Below are positions 3,241-9,982 of a DNA stretch of 10,032 nt, piece by piece. This DNA comes from a virus: UHGV virus genome UHGV-0102185. One strand, given 5' to 3'. A program made the position numbers and the translations under genes. Position 1 is the stretch's first letter; every line of letters begins with the position of its first letter. A model generated the notes under the pieces. That model was not told the origin of the DNA. It saw only the letters and a program-made list of their open reading frames with translations, and searched no databases.

Positions 3241-3385
3241 CCCGGAGACGAACGGCGATTTAAGTGCCGATATCCGGCAGCTTGAGAACGCGCTGGCACG
3301 CTGTGCCAGCCAGGTAAAAATGATTAAACACTGTCAGGACGAAAACGATGCTCAAACCCGACAGCCTGCGCAGGGCGCTGACTGA
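3095..3385 (+). CDS. lysC: Outer-membrane lipoprotein spanin (Rz1-like), P2 LysC-like, nested out of frame in lysB
   Basis: 96 aa with a signal peptide and lipobox (MKTKIFAAGTVLTCLMLCAGC), a proline-rich stretch and several cysteines. Starts inside lysB in another frame and runs past the lysB stop into the R start region. Confidence 0.75.
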   Translation: MKTKIFAAGTVLTCLMLCAGCTSAPPAPTPVIVHNACPKVSLCPMPGSDPETNGDLSADIRQLENALARCASQVKMIKHCQDENDAQTRQPAQGAD

Positions 3386-3815
3386 TGCCGTCACGGTGCT
3401 GAAAACTAACCCCGATATGCTTCGGATATTCGTGGATAACGGGAGTATTGCCTCCACACTGGCGACGTCGCTGTCATTCGAAAAGCGTTACACGCTCAAT
3501 GTCATTGTGACCGACTTTACCGGTGATTTTGACCTGCTCATCGTGCCGGTGCTGGCGTGGCTGCGGGAAAATCAGCCCGACATCATGACCACCGACGCAG
3601 GCCAGAAAAAGGGCTTCACGTTTTATGCAGACATCAACAATGACAGCAGCTTTGATATCAGCATCAGCCTGATGCTGACCGAGCGCACGCTGGTCAGTGA
3701 GGTGGACGGCGCACTGCATGTGAAGAATATCCCGGAACCCCCGCCGCCGGAGCCGGTCACCCGCCCGATGGAGCTTTATATCAATGGCGAACTGGTGAGC
3801 AAGTGGGATGAATGA
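3348..3815 (+). CDS. R: Tail completion protein, P2 gpR-like
   Basis: 155 aa (MLKPDSLRRALTDAVTVLKTNPDMLRIFVDNGSIAS...), size and position matching P2 gpR; stop overlaps the S start (ATGAATGA). Confidence 0.85.
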   Translation: MLKPDSLRRALTDAVTVLKTNPDMLRIFVDNGSIASTLATSLSFEKRYTLNVIVTDFTGDFDLLIVPVLAWLRENQPDIMTTDAGQKKGFTFYADINNDSSFDISISLMLTERTLVSEVDGALHVKNIPEPPPPEPVTRPMELYINGELVSKWDE

Positions 3816-4257
3816 GTTTAAGCGTTTTGAAGACCGGCTGACCGGACTGATTGAGTCGCTGTCACCGTCAGGGCGTCGGCGACTGGCGGTAGATATTGCG
3901 AAGAAACTGCGCCAGCGCCAGCAGCAGCGAATTAAATTACAAAAAGGCCCGGATGGTACGCCGTATGTACCGAGAAAAAACCAACCAGTGCGAAATAAGA
4001 AAGGCCGGATAAAGCGGGAAATGTTTGTGAAATTACGCACTAACCGGTTTATGAAAGCAACAGCTAGCGAGAGTGCGGCGGTGGTGGAGTTTACTGGTAA
4101 GGTTGAGTGTATTGCGAGAGTACATCAATTTGGGTTGGCTGATAAGCCTAGTTACAACAGTAAGGCTGTGGTTTATCCTGTTCGTATACTTATGGGAATC
4201 TCAGAGCGTGATACGAAATTTGTTGAAGAAGTTATTATTCGCTACCTATCTCATTAG
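3808..4257 (+). CDS. S: Tail completion protein, P2 gpS-like, with an AT-richer and probably divergent 3' portion
   Basis: 149 aa (MNEFKRFEDRLTGLIESLSPSGRRRL...VHQFGL...); the N-terminal third is GC-rich like the backbone, while from about 3950 onward composition and codon choice become AT-rich. Confidence 0.85.
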   Translation: MNEFKRFEDRLTGLIESLSPSGRRRLAVDIAKKLRQRQQQRIKLQKGPDGTPYVPRKNQPVRNKKGRIKREMFVKLRTNRFMKATASESAAVVEFTGKVECIARVHQFGLADKPSYNSKAVVYPVRILMGISERDTKFVEEVIIRYLSH

Positions 4258-4302
4258 GGACGATGAAAATATAGTTTCATCAGCTATATTCTAGTATATA
4301 AA

Positions 4303-4337
4303 ATACTAAGGCTACACTAGCCGTGTAGCCTTAGTAT
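4303..4337. terminator. Perfect hairpin (15-bp stem, 5-nt loop) between convergent genes; candidate bidirectional intrinsic terminator
   Basis: ATACTAAGGCTACAC (4303-4317), loop TAGCC, GTGTAGCCTTAGTAT (4323-4337) are exact reverse complements. Lies between the S stop (4257) and the minus-strand gene's stop (4358), in AT-rich flanks, but without a clean poly-U run on either side. Confidence 0.5.
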
Positions 4338-4357
4338 ATGTTTGGGATATTATATAA

Positions 4358-5602
4358 CTAAATCCAGCGAAGGTAGAATAGTAAGTAAGGATCTCTGATG
4401 TCTAATACATCGCTTTCTTGATCCCACTCGATAATACTGCTATTTGCAGCATCGTTGGCAATAGCAGTTGAGTGCTGACATGCACTGGTTATACTAGAAC
4501 CGCTTGGGCTATCGCCATGACATAACGAGGTCACTCGAGATACTAAGTCAGAATAACGAAATGTCAGCGTCGGAGGATTAGAAGCAATGGCTTTTAATAA
4601 AAAGACATAAACATCGCCTTGCCAGCCATCTTTTGATATATATGATTTTCTATCAGAACCACGCACTTTAGGTCCTTCGCGCATTTTATCCACAATCGTG
4701 CTGTAATCTGCTGACTGAAGTGTACGTTTGCACACTCTTTGCAATGTGGCAATATCTTTTTGATATTTTATTGAAGTATCAGAAGTCTCTCTGACATTCA
4801 TTTCAAAACAAGAGTTTAAGCATAAATATTGCATTAGTTGTGGTGAGCCTGCGGACTCTTTTACTAACTCACTTATAACTTCATCAGAGGCATCTATATT
4901 GAGTAGTTTGAATCCTTTCTGAGCAATAATTTTTAAGGTTGATTCATCCCAATAATCAAAATCAATATTAAATATCCGACCTCGTAAGTCAGAGTTACCC
5001 CGAAGAACATCATCAGAATGATATGGCACTGATGCACAAATAAATTTGCAGCCATTAGCTATGGCATCTTTTATTTGTCGTGATAGTTCGGCTTGAGCTT
5101 CTTTAGCAATATAGTGAAAATCATCGATAAAGATAACATAATCTGTGTTTGCGATTTCTCGCTTCATTAGTTGAAAGAGATCTATCGCAAATGATTCTGA
5201 GGTTTGATCTGCTGTACTATAACCAGCGGATGCAGACCCTTTAAGACTACCTTTTGCTAAAATTACACCAGCTTGGGCAGATAATTCTCCTGTACTTGAA
5301 AATGATGAGGTGCCAGTTTTACTTTGAACTTGGGTTACTGGTACACCAAGTATGTCGAAAACGCGCTTCCATAAATCATTAGCAGATTGAACCCCTGCTC
5401 CAGTTACTTCGATTAGCCTCTGGGTTCCAAGTACTTTCTTAACAAAGACAGTTTTTCCTGATTTTGATGGGCCAGAGATAGAAATCAGCATGGTGCCCAT
5501 CTCAAGTGTATCGATTAACTGTTGCTGTTTAGATACTAGGTGATCCTCAACCAGTGTGTGGTTGGGATAACCGCCTGGGATAAAAACCTCTGTCGCCTTC
5601 AT
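4358..5602 (-). CDS. Compact STAND/AAA_16-like P-loop NTPase of unknown function; candidate phage-encoded defence or exclusion protein
   Basis: 414-aa minus-strand ORF in the AT-rich block. Walker A GPSKSGKT (nt 5450-5473), Walker B VIFIDDFH of the hhhhDD type (DD at nt 5120-5125), a possible sensor-1-like KFICASV, and a GSP motif (ESAGSPQLMQYL) about 90 aa further on. A Ser/Thr/Gly-rich insert (about aa 94-135) sits between Walker A and B. No canonical Shine-Dalgarno before the ATG. Confidence 0.7.
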   Translation of the reverse strand: MKATEVFIPGGYPNHTLVEDHLVSKQQQLIDTLEMGTMLISISGPSKSGKTVFVKKVLGTQRLIEVTGAGVQSANDLWKRVFDILGVPVTQVQSKTGTSSFSSTGELSAQAGVILAKGSLKGSASAGYSTADQTSESFAIDLFQLMKREIANTDYVIFIDDFHYIAKEAQAELSRQIKDAIANGCKFICASVPYHSDDVLRGNSDLRGRIFNIDFDYWDESTLKIIAQKGFKLLNIDASDEVISELVKESAGSPQLMQYLCLNSCFEMNVRETSDTSIKYQKDIATLQRVCKRTLQSADYSTIVDKMREGPKVRGSDRKSYISKDGWQGDVYVFLLKAIASNPPTLTFRYSDLVSRVTSLCHGDSPSGSSITSACQHSTAIANDAANSSIIEWDQESDVLDIRDPYLLFYLRWI

Positions 5603-5643
5603 ATATCAACGCCAACATTATTAATGGTATGCCAATTTTACGT

Positions 5644-5661
5644 TGTAAGAGGATCAATACA
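5644..5661 (+). promoter_or_regulatory. TGT-N12-ACA element upstream of V; possible Ogr-type late-activator site (speculative)
   Basis: TGT (5644-5646), 12 nt, ACA (5659-5661), centred about 56 nt upstream of the V start codon. P2 late promoters carry such a partial dyad centred near -55 of the transcription start, so the spacing is not ideal and a chance match is plausible. Confidence 0.2.
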
Positions 5662-5708
5662 AGTTCCATTTATTGCCTGTGAGTGCTGAAAAATTCAATA
5701 TTTGAAAA

Positions 5709-6344
5709 ATGAATATAAATCACTCATTACAAGAGCTTGCGCGTGCACTGCGCAACATGATCCGCACCGGTATTATCGTCGAAACCGACCTTAACGCCGG
5801 TCGCTGCCGTGTGCAGACCGGCGGCATGTGCACCGACTGGCTTCAGTGGCTGACCCATCGTGCCGGACGTTCGCGCACATGGTGGGCACCTTCCGTGGGG
5901 GAACAGGTGCTGATTCTGGCTGTGGGCGGTGAACTCGACACGGCGTTCGTTCTGCCGGGGATTTATTCCGGCGATAACCCCGCGCCGTCTGCGTCGGCGG
6001 ATGCCCTGCATATCCGTTTCCCTGACGGGGCGGTGATTGAGTATGAACCTGAAACCAGTGCACTGACGGTAAGCGGAATTAAAACGGCCAGCGTGACGGC
6101 TTCTGATTCTGTTACTGCCACGGTGCCGGTGGTCATGGTGAAAGCATCAACCCGCGTCACCCTGGACACACCGGAGGTGGTCTGCACCAACAGGCTGATT
6201 ACCGGCACGCTGGAAGTGCAGAAGGGCGGGACGATGCGCGGCAACATTGAACACACCGGCGGTGAACTCTCATCAAACGGTAAGGTACTGCATACCCATA
6301 AACACCCCGGCGACAGTGGCGGCACAACAGGGGGACCTCTATGA
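5709..6344 (+). CDS. V: Baseplate spike/assembly protein, P2 gpV-like
   Basis: 211 aa (…LQELARALRNMIRTGIIVETDLNAGRCRVQTGGMCTDWLQWLTHRAGRSRTWWAPSVGEQV…), matching P2 gpV in length and sequence as I recall it; the first few codons are AT-rich. Confidence 0.9.
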   Translation: MNINHSLQELARALRNMIRTGIIVETDLNAGRCRVQTGGMCTDWLQWLTHRAGRSRTWWAPSVGEQVLILAVGGELDTAFVLPGIYSGDNPAPSASADALHIRFPDGAVIEYEPETSALTVSGIKTASVTASDSVTATVPVVMVKASTRVTLDTPEVVCTNRLITGTLEVQKGGTMRGNIEHTGGELSSNGKVLHTHKHPGDSGGTTGGPL

Positions 6345-8134: not shown

Positions 8135-9982
8135 ATGAGCACAAAATTCAAAACCGTTATCACCACTGCCGGTGCAGCAAAGCTGGCAGCGGCAACCGCG
8201 CCGGGAGGGCGGAAGGTCAACATTACCACGATGGCCGTCGGGGATGGCGGTGGTAAATTGCCTGTCCCGGATGCCGGACAGACCGGACTTATCCATGAAG
8301 TCTGGCGACATGCGCTGAACAAAATCAGCCAGGACAAACGAAACAGTAATTATATTATCGCAGAGCTGGTTATTCCGCCGGAGGTGGGCGGTTTCTGGAT
8401 GCGTGAGCTTGGCCTGTACGATGATGCGGGAACATTAATTGCCGTGGCGAACATGGCCGAAAGTTATAAGCCTGCCCTTGCCGAAGGCTCAGGGCGTTCG
8501 CAGACCTGCCGCATGGTCATCATCGTCAGCAGTGTGGCCTCAGTGGCGCTGACCATTGACACCACAACGGTGATGGCGACGCAGGATTACGTTGATGACA
8601 AAATTGCAGAGCACGAACAGTCACGACGTCACCCGGACGCCTCGCTGACCGCAAAAGGTTTTACTCAGTTAAGCAGTGCGACCAACAGCACGTCTGAAAC
8701 ACTGGCCGCAACGCCGAAAGCGGTAAAGGCCGCTTATGATCTTGCTAACGGGAAATATACCGCGCAGGATGCCACCACAGCGCGAAAAGGCCTTGTCCAG
8801 CTCAGTAGCGCCACCAACAGTGATTCTGAAACGCAGGCCGCAACACCAAAAGCGGTGAAGTCTGCCTATGACAATGCTGAAAAACGTCTTCAGAAAGATC
8901 AGAACGGTGCGGATATTCCTGATAAAGGACGCTTCCTGAGTAACATTAATGTTTACAGCAAAGGTGAAGTGGATAAGAAAAAGGGAATGCGAAAGTATTC
9001 GTTTGCAGCCCCTGCAAATGTCGTTGCCGGGAAGTGGTATCCCGTTATCTTTCGCCGTGCTGCCAGCCTTTCAGGAGAAATGGCATCCCGCGTCGTTATT
9101 TCCACTGGTTGTTATAACAGCGATTATGTAATGAATAACTGCGAGTTTAATGGCATGGTTATGCCCGGAGGCTGGACTGATCGTGGTTCATATGCGGCAG
9201 GTTATTTCTGGACGTATCAGACTAATGAGCGTTCAATCCATTCCATTGTTACAAGCCTGAAAGATGATGATGTATGTAGTGTTTTTTATGTTGAAGCCAG
9301 AGCTTTCCCTGTGCAAATTCTTGCAGAGGAAGGGCTAACGGTTATTGTTCCGACAGAGGATTATGTCGTCGGTCAAACGACATATAAGTGGGGGGCAACT
9401 AATCCTGCTACAGAAAGCACGAACGCACAGGCTATTCTGGATTTTAAAAATGGGCGCGGTTATTACTGCTCACATCCATTTATTTCCAGCCTTTCGGGAA
9501 ATGCTGCAACAGCAACGAAGTTAGCGAACGCAAGAAATATTAATGGTGTCAGATTTGATGGCTCTGCTGATATAAATATTAATACACTGGTATCCAGAAA
9601 CCGTGTTACTGCATTAGGTGGGAGCGTAAAGGGGACACCAGGTATTCAGATGTATGAGGCATACAACAATGGCTACCCAACAGCCTATGGTAATGTGCTT
9701 CATCTCACTGGCGTAACCGCAGTAGGAGAGGGTGAGTTACTTATTGGCTGGAGTGGAACCAGCGGTGCTCATGCTCCGGCATATATTCGCTCCCGACGAG
9801 ATACCACAGATGCTAACTGGTCTGGATGGGCGCAACTATATACAACTGCTCATAAACCCTCAGCGGGAGATGTTGGTGCATACACCAAAGCTGAATCAGA
9901 TTCACGTTATGTGAGAGACATGCGGCTGGGCGGTGCATCTACATATAAACCAGCAAATAATGGTACTACATGGACGCGGTGA
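8135..9982 (+). CDS. H: Tail fibre protein, P2 gpH-like, with a divergent C-terminal region
   Basis: 615 aa; N-terminus (MSTKFKTVITTAGAAKLAAATAPGGRKVNITTMAVGDGGG...) typical of P2-family fibres; GTGAGG at 8125-8130 upstream; two fibre-repeat copies; composition becomes AT-richer from about 8900. Confidence 0.9.
   Translation: MSTKFKTVITTAGAAKLAAATAPGGRKVNITTMAVGDGGGKLPVPDAGQTGLIHEVWRHALNKISQDKRNSNYIIAELVIPPEVGGFWMRELGLYDDAGTLIAVANMAESYKPALAEGSGRSQTCRMVIIVSSVASVALTIDTTTVMATQDYVDDKIAEHEQSRRHPDASLTAKGFTQLSSATNSTSETLAATPKAVKAAYDLANGKYTAQDATTARKGLVQLSSATNSDSETQAATPKAVKSAYDNAEKRLQKDQNGADIPDKGRFLSNINVYSKGEVDKKKGMRKYSFAAPANVVAGKWYPVIFRRAASLSGEMASRVVISTGCYNSDYVMNNCEFNGMVMPGGWTDRGSYAAGYFWTYQTNERSIHSIVTSLKDDDVCSVFYVEARAFPVQILAEEGLTVIVPTEDYVVGQTTYKWGATNPATESTNAQAILDFKNGRGYYCSHPFISSLSGNAATATKLANARNINGVRFDGSADININTLVSRNRVTALGGSVKGTPGIQMYEAYNNGYPTAYGNVLHLTGVTAVGEGELLIGWSGTSGAHAPAYIRSRRDTTDANWSGWAQLYTTAHKPSAGDVGAYTKAESDSRYVRDMRLGGASTYKPANNGTTWTR
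8654..8740 (+). repeat. Intragenic tail-fibre repeat, copy 1 (KGFTQLSSATNSTSETLAATPKAVKAAYD)
   Basis: 29-aa motif repeated 44 aa further on with roughly 80% amino-acid identity; resembles the conserved phage tail-fibre repeat seen in P2 H and lambdoid side fibres. Confidence 0.7.
8786..8872 (+). repeat. Intragenic tail-fibre repeat, copy 2 (KGLVQLSSATNSDSETQAATPKAVKSAYD)
   Basis: Second copy of the same motif inside H, in frame. Confidence 0.7.

What the first reader, a model, noticed from the sequence alone, without database searches (positions are those of the whole stretch)
3950..5735. Mosaic junctions fall inside S and V coding sequence: the cargo appears to travel with gene ends as a swappable cassette
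The shift to AT-rich composition starts inside S (about 3950, after the GC-rich N-terminal third) and ends inside V (the first eight or so codons, ATGAATATAAATCACTCATTACAA, are AT-rich before typical GC-rich V sequence resumes near 5735). The S C-terminus still looks gpS-like (VHQFGL retained), so it is a divergent allele rather than a disruption. This is what homologous recombination within flanking conserved genes would produce. As I recall, P2 itself carries an uncharacterised ORF (orf30) at this S/V position, consistent with a recurrent cargo hotspot.
Basis: partly seen in the sequence, partly recalled or inferred. Interest (0 to 1): 0.55.

Follow-up and report, generated by a model that had tools for sequence, protein, structure and literature searches.

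The report
Swappable defence cassette in P2 prophage
In a P2-like E. coli prophage, an AT-rich block carrying a candidate anti-phage ATPase has replaced the end of tail gene S, the S–V spacer and the first dozen codons of baseplate gene V, and it moves between related prophages by homologous recombination inside those genes; this is a well-documented example of a known kind of phage mosaicism at a known hotspot.

Summary
The window is a P2-like late region. Backbone GC is 58.5±3.5%. It drops in two steps inside S: to 49% at 3883, where identity to P2 and L-413C collapses, and to 39% at 4093, where identity to R18C collapses. It returns to 60% at 5743, after V codon 12. The S tail has the same GC and GC3 as the cargo.

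In 5,426 complete E. coli genomes, the S tail is found only in the 12 that carry the cargo. In six other carriers, block 3883–5742 differs from the window by 0–0.43%, while the flanks differ by 1.6–3.6% (Fisher p ≤ 3e-10), and the right-hand recombination ends vary. Across 85 P2-like loci, 49 are empty and nine cargo classes occur, nearly all with their own S 3′ end or V 5′ end. All nine classes and the empty site keep a TTGT core about 65 nt upstream of V; seven classes and the empty site show a TGT–N10-13–ACA dyad there.

The cargo is an Orc1/Cdc6-like AAA+ ATPase (PADLOC candidate PDC-S59). It sits at S/V in seven other enterobacterial P2-like lineages.

The hotspot (P2 orf30 site) and the mechanism are already known, so this is a new member of a known kind and of modest interest.

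The parts
3808..3882 (+). S (gpS tail-completion gene) nt 1-75: backbone-type 5' end, shared by all E. coli P2-like S alleles. It serves as left-hand homology for exchange.
   Evidence: Identical to R18C and 74/75 to L-413C (one mismatch, S nt 75), 72/75 to P2; GC 54.7%. The flank SNPs nearest the block in other carriers lie at 3823 and 3847.
3883..4092 (+). S nt 76-285: the 'type-B' middle of S. This second S allele is shared with R18C and other cargo classes and resembles Klebsiella/Yersinia-type gpS.
   Evidence: 208/210 identical to R18C but about 60% to P2 and L-413C. Present in 97 of 5,426 E. coli genomes. GC 49.0%, below every backbone 210-nt window. All 12 type-B loci in the 85-locus survey (8 window-type, 3 R18C-type, 1 Pycsar-type) carry cargo, and all 49 empty sites have the P2-type S.
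4093..4257 (+). S nt 286-450: cargo-linked AT-rich S tail (residues 96-149 plus stop). It is a true but very divergent gpS C-terminus.
   Evidence: Identity to R18C collapses here. GC 39.4% and GC3 30.9%, equal to the cargo. In E. coli it is found only in the 12 cargo-bearing genomes. Closest relative is a Klebsiella-type S tail at 59% aa identity.
4258..4357 (.). Spacer between the convergent S and cargo genes, with a perfect 15-bp-stem hairpin at 4303-4337 followed by a U-run on the minus strand. It is the likely intrinsic terminator of the cargo gene and may also stop read-through from the O operon.
   Evidence: Terminator scan; RNA fold -24.2 kcal/mol, z = -6.2, 0 of 200 shuffles as stable; inverted repeat I1.
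4358..5602 (-). Cargo: a 414-aa Orc1/Cdc6-like AAA+ P-loop ATPase, a candidate single-gene anti-phage defence protein (PADLOC PDC-S59-like), antisense to the late operons.
   Evidence: PDC-S59 E = 2.8e-31; weak AAA_22, AAA_16 and ATPase_2 hits. Walker A GPSKSGKT and Walker B-like IDDFH are invariant in 26 homologues. AlphaFold model pLDDT 78.5. Foldseek top hits are Cdc6, PAB2304, ORC, RuvB and RFC. Orthologues at 71-78% identity lie at S/V in seven other P2-like lineages.
5603..5708 (+). Cassette-borne spacer upstream of V, carrying a late-promoter-type activator dyad TGT-N12-ACA at 5644-5661 (the P_V equivalent). It is unrelated in sequence to the P2, L-413C or R18C spacers apart from this element.
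   Evidence: exact TGT-N12-ACA starting 65 nt upstream of the V ATG. A TTGT core lies at -63 to -68 in all nine cargo classes and the empty site, and a TGT-N10-13-ACA dyad is found in seven classes and the empty site. P2 late-promoter consensus and operon structure are from PMC3931495.
5709..5742 (+). V (gpV baseplate spike) nt 1-34: cargo-linked AT-rich V head (MNINHSLQELAR instead of MNTLANIQELAR).
   Evidence: Differs from P2, L-413C and R18C up to 5742. GC 33%. Identical in all 8 carriers and absent from every other class.
5743..6344 (+). Rest of V: backbone-type, serving as right-hand homology for exchange.
   Evidence: About 98% identical to P2, L-413C and R18C. The first SNPs versus other carriers fall at 5777, 5861 or 6050. 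Pfam Phage_base_V, Phage_spike and Apex.

Best explanation
The S/V boundary of P2-like phages is the gap between two late operons: O-N-M-L-K-R-S ends there and V-W-J-I-H-G begins. It is a long-known accessory-gene hotspot. In this prophage the site holds a cassette made of five parts: a foreign gpS C-terminal tail, a terminator hairpin, an antisense Orc1/Cdc6-like AAA+ ATPase gene (a candidate anti-phage defence), a P_V-type late promoter of its own, and a foreign gpV N-terminal head.

The cassette came from a diverged, low-GC P2-like phage in which S, cargo and V were already neighbours. It entered the E. coli Peduovirus backbone by recombination between the homologous but diverged S and V genes, which fixed junctions inside the coding sequences (S nt 285/286, V nt 34/35). 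The recipient already carried a second S allele ('type B', from S nt 76), which is itself the product of an earlier crossover.

Since then the whole block has spread among E. coli P2-like prophages by ordinary homologous recombination in the roughly 97%-identical flanks, with variable end points. Only cassettes that supply functional S and V ends and a late promoter for the V operon can survive in a viable phage, which is why every cargo class brings homologous gene ends and a promoter element.

Shown here: the junction positions, the linkage, the low-diversity block in diverged backbones, the variable crossover points, the conserved promoter element, and the cargo's fold and family.

Inferred: that the donor was a low-GC P2-like phage, that RecA-type or phage recombination is the agent, that the promoter and terminator function, and that the cargo defends against phages.
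For: Nested breakpoints inside S at 3883 and 4093 and inside V at 5742. The S tail's GC and GC3 equal the cargo's and lie far below the backbone.

The S tail occurs only with the cargo: 12 of 12 genomes, and none of the roughly 1,776 other P2-like places in E. coli. Block 3883-5742 has 0-8 SNPs per 1,860 nt, against 99-223 per 6,274 nt in the flanks, in six carriers (Fisher p from 3e-10 to 3e-24). Across 28 within-class pairs, the block is 0.26% diverged and the flanks 2.2%. The right ends of the conserved tract differ among carriers: 5777, 5861, 6050.

L127 has an independent type A/B crossover at S nt ~112. Nine cargo classes show near-perfect linkage to their own S 3' or V 5' alleles. The tails are true gpS homologues. 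The nt-285 junction sits next to a local conservation peak, the AAVVEF patch, with 0.82 mean pairwise identity.

A TTGT core lies at -63 to -68 from the V ATG in all classes and the empty site, and a TGT-N10-13-ACA dyad is found in seven of nine classes and the empty site, matching the P2 late-promoter consensus (PMC3931495). There are no terminal repeats at the block ends, and the block's only sizeable ORF outside S and V, the 414-aa cargo, is an AAA+ ATPase rather than a recombinase.

Cargo orthologues lie at the same site and in the same orientation in seven other P2-like lineages. Other occupants of the site are defence genes: a Pycsar cyclase at E = 1e-128, a RelA/SpoT PDC-S33 protein, and an AAA-TIR fusion.
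Against: No donor phage with a closely matching S tail, spacer or V head was found. The closest S tail is 59% identical and belongs to a Klebsiella phage with a different cargo.

Among phages carrying orthologous cargo, the S tails are only 43-54% identical while the cargos are 71-78% identical. Two of those lineages have GC-normal tails. So linkage between tail and cargo breaks down over deep time, or the tail evolves unusually fast.

The S tail and V head are also the least conserved parts of these genes generally. Some of the divergence could therefore reflect relaxed constraint rather than import. The junction at S nt 75 is not at a marked conservation peak.

Promoter, terminator and defence functions are untested.
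Confidence: 0.8

Rival explanations
1. A naked AT-rich gene was inserted into the S-V spacer by illegitimate or site-specific recombination. The adjacent S tail and V head then diverged and became AT-rich in place, through relaxed constraint, local mutational bias, or selection for AT-rich DNA next to the cargo.
For: The S tail (nt ~335-450) and V head (nt 1-24) are the least conserved parts of these genes across P2-like phages. The tails are hypervariable and do not track cargo similarity at depth. AT-rich tails recur next to AT-rich cargo in 6 of 8 lineages.
Against: The identity changes are abrupt steps (about 99% to about 55% at 4093 against R18C; about 100% to about 60% at 3883 against P2), not gradients. 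The tail shows almost no within-class variation while the flanks vary by 2-3%. The tail's GC3 matches the cargo's exactly. There are no repeats or target duplications at the ends, and the block's only sizeable ORF outside S and V is an AAA+ ATPase, not a recombinase. The whole promoter spacer is also replaced, yet it keeps a functional-looking element.
Confidence: 0.08
2. There is no cassette mobility. The 12 E. coli prophages are one clonal phage lineage, and the block looks conserved only because of purifying selection or chance.
For: All carriers share gene order and about 97-98% backbone identity.
Against: The block includes 206 nt of non-coding DNA and all synonymous sites, yet shows 0-8 differences where 30-66 would be expected at flank rates. 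The R, V, J and H proteins of the carriers are different alleles. The tract ends differ among carriers. Flank divergence within the class (2.2%) approaches the between-class level (3.0%).
Confidence: 0.04
3. The linked gene ends are functionally coupled to the cargo. For example, the ATPase might sense gpS or gpV of competing P2-like phages, and the resident phage's divergent S tail and V head would spare it from its own defence.
For: Strict short-term linkage of tail, head and cargo. The tail is more divergent than any other segment compared. Prophage defence genes commonly target related phages (general knowledge; Rousset 2022, PMC9122126).
Against: There is no direct evidence. Physical proximity plus recombination explains the linkage fully. 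Orthologous cargos coexist with very different tails, including GC-normal ones. Several cargo classes leave S or V unchanged.
Confidence: 0.06

Closest known systems
P2 orf30 site (S/V) accessory-gene region of P2-like phages, one of three classical variable regions alongside the TO-region (old/tin) and the Z-region (Z/fun)
   Same: Same position between S and V. The content is AT-rich, variable and non-essential in otherwise syntenic phages. Empty sites exist (L-413C). P2 carries orf30 and R18C carries a different ORF (PMC3091744; PMC6823313).
   Different: The cargo here is a different gene, an Orc1/Cdc6-like ATPase. The replaced tract reaches 375 nt into S (165 nt for the cargo-specific tail) and 34 nt into V. 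In P2 itself the junctions are at the last three codons of S and immediately upstream of the V ATG.
Defence hotspots of P2-like phages and P4 satellites exchanged between elements (Rousset et al. 2022, PMC9122126; Moura de Sousa et al. 2026, PMC13586616)
   Same: Defence-type cargo in a fixed slot between conserved genes, with rapid turnover that is independent of the core genome. Homologous recombination through flanking genes is proposed there as a route between phages.
   Different: Those studies centre on the gpA/gpQ hotspot. They pool everything 'downstream of GpL' (16% of P2 systems) without resolving the S/V site or its junctions. Here the junctions are mapped to the base, inside essential structural genes, and each cassette is seen to bring its own P_V-type promoter element.
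Classical phage mosaicism with joints inside genes (general knowledge of lambdoid and P2-like phage comparative genomics)
   Same: Sharp transitions from near-identity to high divergence, joints within coding sequence that keep the reading frame, and exchange between homologous genes of diverged relatives.
   Different: Nothing essential differs. This is a well-resolved example with population-level evidence.
PADLOC candidate system PDC-S59 and Orc1/Cdc6-type AAA+ ATPases
   Same: HMM match E = 2.8e-31 over the ATPase half. Walker A and B motifs are present. The fold matches Cdc6, ORC, PAB2304, RuvB and RFC.
   Different: The PDC-S59 profile covers only residues 37-296 of 414. TM-scores to solved structures are low (0.35-0.46). 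No effector domain was recognised, whereas another S/V cargo (L030) fuses a PDC-S59-like ATPase to a TIR domain. Anti-phage activity is untested for any member as far as the searched literature shows.

Membership tests
P2-like (Peduovirus-type) late-gene region | Gene order M-L-X-Y-K-lysA-lysB/C-R-S-V-W-J-I-H with high nucleotide identity to P2-group phages | tested here: met
   ORFs and Pfam hits. 95-99% identity of the flanks to P2, L-413C, R18C and others. RefSeq annotation of identical prophages.
gpS tail-completion / virion morphogenesis protein (PF05069, TIGR01635) | Full-length match above the curated cut-off | tested here: met
   PF05069 118 bits (cut-off 24.3), residues 3-147. TIGR01635 132 bits (cut-off 37.65).
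gpS tail-completion / virion morphogenesis protein (PF05069, TIGR01635) | The mosaic allele supports tail completion in a viable phage | not testable with these tools
   Indirect only: R18C, a plaque-forming phage, carries the same type-B middle with another tail (PMC6823313). The window's tail allele has not been seen in an isolated phage.
P2 orf30-site accessory hotspot | Variable content between S and V in otherwise syntenic relatives, with empty sites present | tested here: met
   Of 85 loci, 49 are empty and nine cargo classes are present. Klebsiella P2-like phages also carry cargo there.
P2 orf30-site accessory hotspot | The cargo is compositionally foreign (AT-rich) | tested here: met
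   Cargo GC 39.4% against a backbone of 58.5%. The S-stop-to-V-ATG intervals of all cargo classes are 34-38% GC.
Homologous-recombination-exchanged cassette | The block is much less diverged than its flanks across carriers, with variable tract ends | tested here: met
Homologous-recombination-exchanged cassette | Dependence on RecA or phage recombination functions | not testable with these tools
   Requires genetic crosses.
Transposon, integron-type or integrase-mobilised cassette | A recombinase gene, terminal inverted or direct repeats, target-site duplication, and fixed ends | tested here: not met
   The block's only sizeable ORF outside S and V is the 414-aa cargo, which matches AAA+ ATPase families and no recombinase family. 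There are no repeats at 3883, 4093 or 5742. Junction positions vary between classes and even within a class.
P2 late promoter (Ogr-dependent, P_V) | A TGT-N12-ACA dyad upstream of the operon's first gene | tested here: met
   TGTAAGAGGATCAATACA at 5644-5661. A TTGT core at the same distance from the V ATG is present in all classes and the empty site, and a TGT-N10-13-ACA dyad in seven of nine classes and the empty site. The consensus comes from PMC3931495.
P2 late promoter (Ogr-dependent, P_V) | Ogr-dependent transcription initiation | not testable with these tools
   Needs a reporter assay or 5' end mapping.
PADLOC PDC-S59 candidate defence protein | Match to the family HMM over most of its length | tested here: inconclusive
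   E = 2.8e-31, but only residues 37-296 of 414 match profile positions 37-292 of 428. The C-terminal third is not covered.
PADLOC PDC-S59 candidate defence protein | Protection against phage infection | not testable with these tools
   No paper in the searched library mentions PDC-S59.
Orc1/Cdc6-like AAA+ ATPase | Walker A and B motifs, an AAA+ base plus lid fold, and a C-terminal helical / winged-helix region | tested here: inconclusive
   GPSKSGKT and IDDFH are invariant. Foldseek gives Cdc6 at E = 4e-9 and PAB2304 at 3e-7, but TM-scores are 0.41-0.46. Pfam AAA-family hits are all below their gathering thresholds.

The most novel reading that the evidence does not exclude
The S tail and V head are not passive hitch-hikers. 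They are co-selected with the cargo: the Orc1/Cdc6-like ATPase would be a defence that recognises the tail-completion or baseplate-spike proteins (or the S/V DNA) of competing P2-like phages, and the resident phage's divergent gene ends would make it immune to its own weapon. That would explain both the strict linkage and the extreme diversity of the gpS C-terminus.
Probability: 0.06. Interest if true: 0.75.

Novelty: new member of a known kind. Interest (0 to 1): 0.35.

Why it matters
The finding gives a base-resolution, population-backed picture of how accessory and defence genes are swapped in a well-studied temperate phage. The unit of exchange is not the cargo gene alone. It is a module that also carries the ends of two essential structural genes, a terminator, and the late promoter of the downstream operon. 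This has three practical consequences.

- Hotspot surveys that define cargo strictly as 'between core genes' will misplace boundaries and may miss chimeric core genes.
- gpS and gpV alleles can serve as markers for cargo type.
- The S/V site, which has received far less attention than the old/tin and Z/fun sites, holds recognisable defence genes (a Pycsar cyclase, a RelA/SpoT protein, an AAA-TIR fusion). It also holds an untested, widely distributed Orc1/Cdc6-like ATPase that is retained at this site across enterobacterial P2-like phages, which makes it a reasonable candidate for a new single-gene defence system.

None of this overturns current views. It refines them.

Tried and rejected
- **Donor search.** Megablast and tblastn against 50,697 phage records found no phage with this S tail, spacer, cargo or V head at high identity. 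The donor remains unknown.
- **Tail travels with cargo over deep time.** I expected the S tails of phages carrying orthologous cargo to resemble the window's tail. They do not (43-54% identity), so I dropped the idea.
- **Crossovers only at conservation peaks.** This holds for nt 285 and for the V junction region but not convincingly for nt 75.
- **Transposon or site-specific insertion.** There are no terminal repeats, and the only sizeable ORF in the block is an AAA+ ATPase, not a recombinase.
- **Non-coding RNA in the spacers.** No Rfam family scored at gathering threshold.
- **Cargo promoter.** A sigma-70 consensus scan found no promoter-like site for the cargo in 5603-5708, and the number of sites in the region was no higher than in shuffles. 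The cargo promoter is not identified.
- **Sequence search of solved structures.** Nothing significant for the cargo.
- **Literature.** A search for PDC-S59 gave nothing. The neaT paper concerns a different moron site, G/FI.


Full report
**What the window is.** The 10-kb window is the late region of a P2-like (Peduovirus-type) prophage. It has ORFs for the small terminase M, L, X, holin, endolysin, lysA, lysB/C, R (3348-3815), S (3808-4257), V (5709-6344), W, J, I and the tail fibre H. Pfam confirms gpR, gpS and gpV. The flanks are 95-99% identical to P2, L-413C, R18C and many other Peduoviruses. Between S and V lies one 414-aa ORF on the opposite strand (4358-5602).

**Checking the observation.** Backbone GC in 165-nt windows is 58.5 ± 3.5% (minimum 49.7%). 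Inside S the GC falls in two steps:
- S nt 1-75: 54.7%
- S nt 76-285: 49.0%
- S nt 286-450: 39.4%, GC3 30.9%

The last segment is indistinguishable from the cargo (39.4%, GC3 29.2%). Both spacers are 31%. The first 33 nt of V are 33%, and the rest of V is 60%.

Base-by-base alignment puts the breaks at 3882/3883 against P2 and L-413C, at 4092/4093 against R18C, and at 5742/5743 in V against all three. The description of the V end was accurate: amino-acid changes fall in codons 3-7, and synonymous changes run to codon 12. S remains a full-length gpS (PF05069 residues 3-147; TIGR01635) and retains VHQFGL.

**Are the gene ends part of the mobile unit?** Three tests say yes.
1. *Linkage.* The cargo-containing block 4093-5742 is present at ≥99.5% identity in 12 of 5,426 complete E. 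coli genomes. The S tail plus spacer alone (4093-4357), searched with sensitive blastn, hits exactly those 12 genomes and nothing else. The R/S-5' backbone anchor is present at 1,788 places in 1,565 genomes.
2. *Diversity.* In six other carriers, block 3883-5742 differs from the window at 0-8 of 1,860 positions, and the flanks at 99-223 of 6,274 (1.6-3.6%). Fisher p ranges from 3e-10 to 3e-24. Across all 28 within-class pairs, the block is 0.26% diverged and the flanks 2.2%, close to the 3.0% seen between prophages with different cargo.
3. *Tract ends.* The first flank SNP to the right is at 5777, 5861 or 6050 depending on the carrier. On the left it is at 3823 or 3847 in five carriers and at 3776, in R, in L006. 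Homologous recombination in the flanks produces this pattern; a site-specific event does not.

**Is this general at the site?** I surveyed 85 P2-like loci: 75 from IMG/VR found with gpV, the window itself, three reference phages (P2, L-413C, R18C) and six cargo-bearing E. coli prophages. Of these, 49 are empty, 17 carry P2-type orf30, 8 carry the window's cargo, 3 carry the R18C-type ORF, 4 carry a 357-aa ORF, and four are single-member classes.

Junctions, measured against the empty-site reference, fall as follows:
- **Deep inside S:** nt 75 for the window, R18C-type and Pycsar classes; nt 425 for an AAA-TIR class.
- **In the last three codons of S:** nt 444 for P2-orf30 and the 357-aa class.
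- **After the S stop codon:** two classes.
- **Inside V:** four classes (nt ~9, ~21, 30-34 and ~45-60).
- **At or 17-18 nt upstream of the V ATG:** the rest.

Gene-end alleles are almost perfectly class-specific. For example, the last S residues are ...HLDR in 48 of 49 empties and ...HLER or ...HLEC in all 17 orf30 loci.

The 'type-B' S middle (3883-4092) is shared by several cargo classes and is present in 97 E. coli genomes. One R18C-type prophage (L127) switches from the P2-type to type B at nt ~112 instead of nt 75. That is an independent crossover inside the gene.

At the protein level the tails are real gpS C-termini (conserved IARVHQ.GL and YP.R.L). The type-B middle and the window's tail are closest to Klebsiella/Yersinia-type gpS.

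**A constraint that shapes the cassette.** S is the last gene of the O operon, and V is the first gene of the V operon. The V operon is driven by the Ogr-dependent late promoter P_V, whose consensus is TGT-N12-ACA (PMC3931495). The window's 106-nt spacer upstream of V is unrelated to those of P2, L-413C or R18C, yet it contains an exact TGT-N12-ACA at 5644-5661, starting 65 nt upstream of the ATG. All nine cargo classes and the empty site keep a TTGT core at -63 to -68, and a TGT-N10-13-ACA dyad is found in seven classes and the empty site. Each cassette therefore supplies its own late promoter element.

On the other side, a perfect 15-bp hairpin (4303-4337; -24.2 kcal/mol, z = -6.2) followed by a U-run on the minus strand is a plausible terminator for the antisense cargo.

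No terminal repeats and no Rfam RNA were found. The block's only sizeable ORF is an AAA+ ATPase, not a recombinase.

**The cargo.**
- It matches the PADLOC candidate single-gene system PDC-S59 (E = 2.8e-31 over residues 37-296). No characterised defence family reaches significance; the only other PADLOC hit is weak, mad8 at E = 1e-4 over residues 141-189. Pfam AAA hits are sub-threshold.
- The family has more than 1,400 members across many phyla, with invariant Walker A (GPSKSGKT) and IDDFH motifs.
- An AlphaFold model (pLDDT 78.5, with a disordered loop at 93-135) resembles Cdc6/Orc1, PAB2304, RuvB and RFC subunits. Foldseek E-values go down to 4e-9, with TM-scores of 0.35-0.46.
- Orthologues of 71-78% identity sit at the same S/V position, also antisense, in seven other P2-like lineages, including Enterobacter ludwigii and Serratia marcescens prophages with different lysis modules.
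- One orthologue is retained, with R, S and fragments of V, in a decayed remnant flanked by host genes (L119).
- Other occupants of the site include a Pycsar cyclase (E = 1e-128), a RelA/SpoT-domain PDC-S33 protein, and an AAA-TIR protein whose ATPase is also PDC-S59-like.

A defence role is therefore a reasonable inference, but it is not shown.

**Limits of the cassette idea.** Among the phages with orthologous cargo, the S tail is AT-rich (35-41% GC) in 6 of 8 lineages including the window. But it is only 43-54% identical to the window's tail, whereas the cargos are 71-78% identical and R, the S middle and the V body are 58-86% identical. The S tail and V head are also the least conserved parts of those genes across P2-like phages.

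So the tail is linked to the cargo on the timescale of spread within E. coli but not over deep time. Either further crossovers between tail and cargo have occurred, or the tail evolves unusually fast. No donor carrying this exact tail or head was found.

**Comparison with what is known.** The orf30 site is one of three classical regions where P2-like phages carry foreign genes (PMC3091744). The R18C paper noted a different ORF there (PMC6823313). Recent hotspot studies concentrate on the gpA/gpQ and Z/fun sites. They pool everything 'downstream of GpL', and they propose homologous recombination through flanking genes as the route of exchange between phages (PMC13586616). Joints inside genes are a classical feature of phage mosaicism.

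What this analysis adds:
- a base-level map of the junctions
- the population evidence for spread of the block
- the finding that each module carries its own gene ends and P_V element
- the identification of a conserved Orc1/Cdc6-like ATPase as a recurrent occupant of this site

**Verdict.** This is a new member of a known kind and of modest interest. The untested defence function of the cargo and the hypervariable gpS tail are the most promising leads.

Noticed in passing
window 8800-9982 (3' part of tail-fibre gene H): GC drops to 41-52%. This part of H differs at 34-60% of positions from prophages that are otherwise 97-98% identical (641-1139 mismatches in 1,898 nt). It is a second mosaic segment, presumably a host-range cassette.
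   Followed up: no
L119:2000-6000 (ENA metagenome scaffold; the protein is named Enterobacter ludwigii in NCBI): A decayed P2-like remnant, flanked by host genes (a sigma factor, DsbD, a chemoreceptor), retains only lysC, R, S, the cargo orthologue, a split V and a fragment of J. This suggests the ATPase is kept while the phage decays.
   Followed up: partly
L088:3512-4900, L067:3776-4867, L030:3392-4918: Other cargos at the same S/V site are recognisable defence genes: a Pycsar cyclase (E = 1e-128), a RelA/SpoT-domain protein (PDC-S33), and an AAA-TIR fusion whose ATPase also matches PDC-S59.
   Followed up: partly
window 5689-5708, and the equivalent positions in L001, L002 and L003: By eye there is no Shine-Dalgarno-like purine run in the ~20 nt upstream of the V start codon, either in the window (AAAAATTCAATATTTGAAAA) or in the P2 and L-413C types. 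The late-promoter dyad lies only ~65 nt upstream, so V may have a very short or unusual leader.
   Followed up: no
L083 (S gene): In one member of the 357-aa-cargo class, S is frameshifted (a 138-aa product with an unrelated C-terminus). That prophage is probably defective.
   Followed up: no
L008:9893-10650: In one cargo-bearing E. coli prophage (strain ESDR8), the tail-fibre assembly gene is truncated next to an IS21-family element (ISSso4 IstB), and the endolysin is annotated as partial.
   Followed up: no
L110:5278-6021 (Klebsiella phage ST147-VIM1phi7.1 gpV): The annotated V is 744 nt and carries a 33-residue N-terminal extension ahead of the conserved MNTLASIQELA start. This is probably a mis-called start codon that reaches into the promoter spacer.
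   Followed up: no
L003 versus the P2-orf30 class (17 loci): The orf30 block is more diverged among its carriers (mean 4.9%) than their flanks are (2.6%). This is the opposite of the window's cassette, so orf30 is an old, fast-evolving resident rather than a recent arrival.
   Followed up: partly
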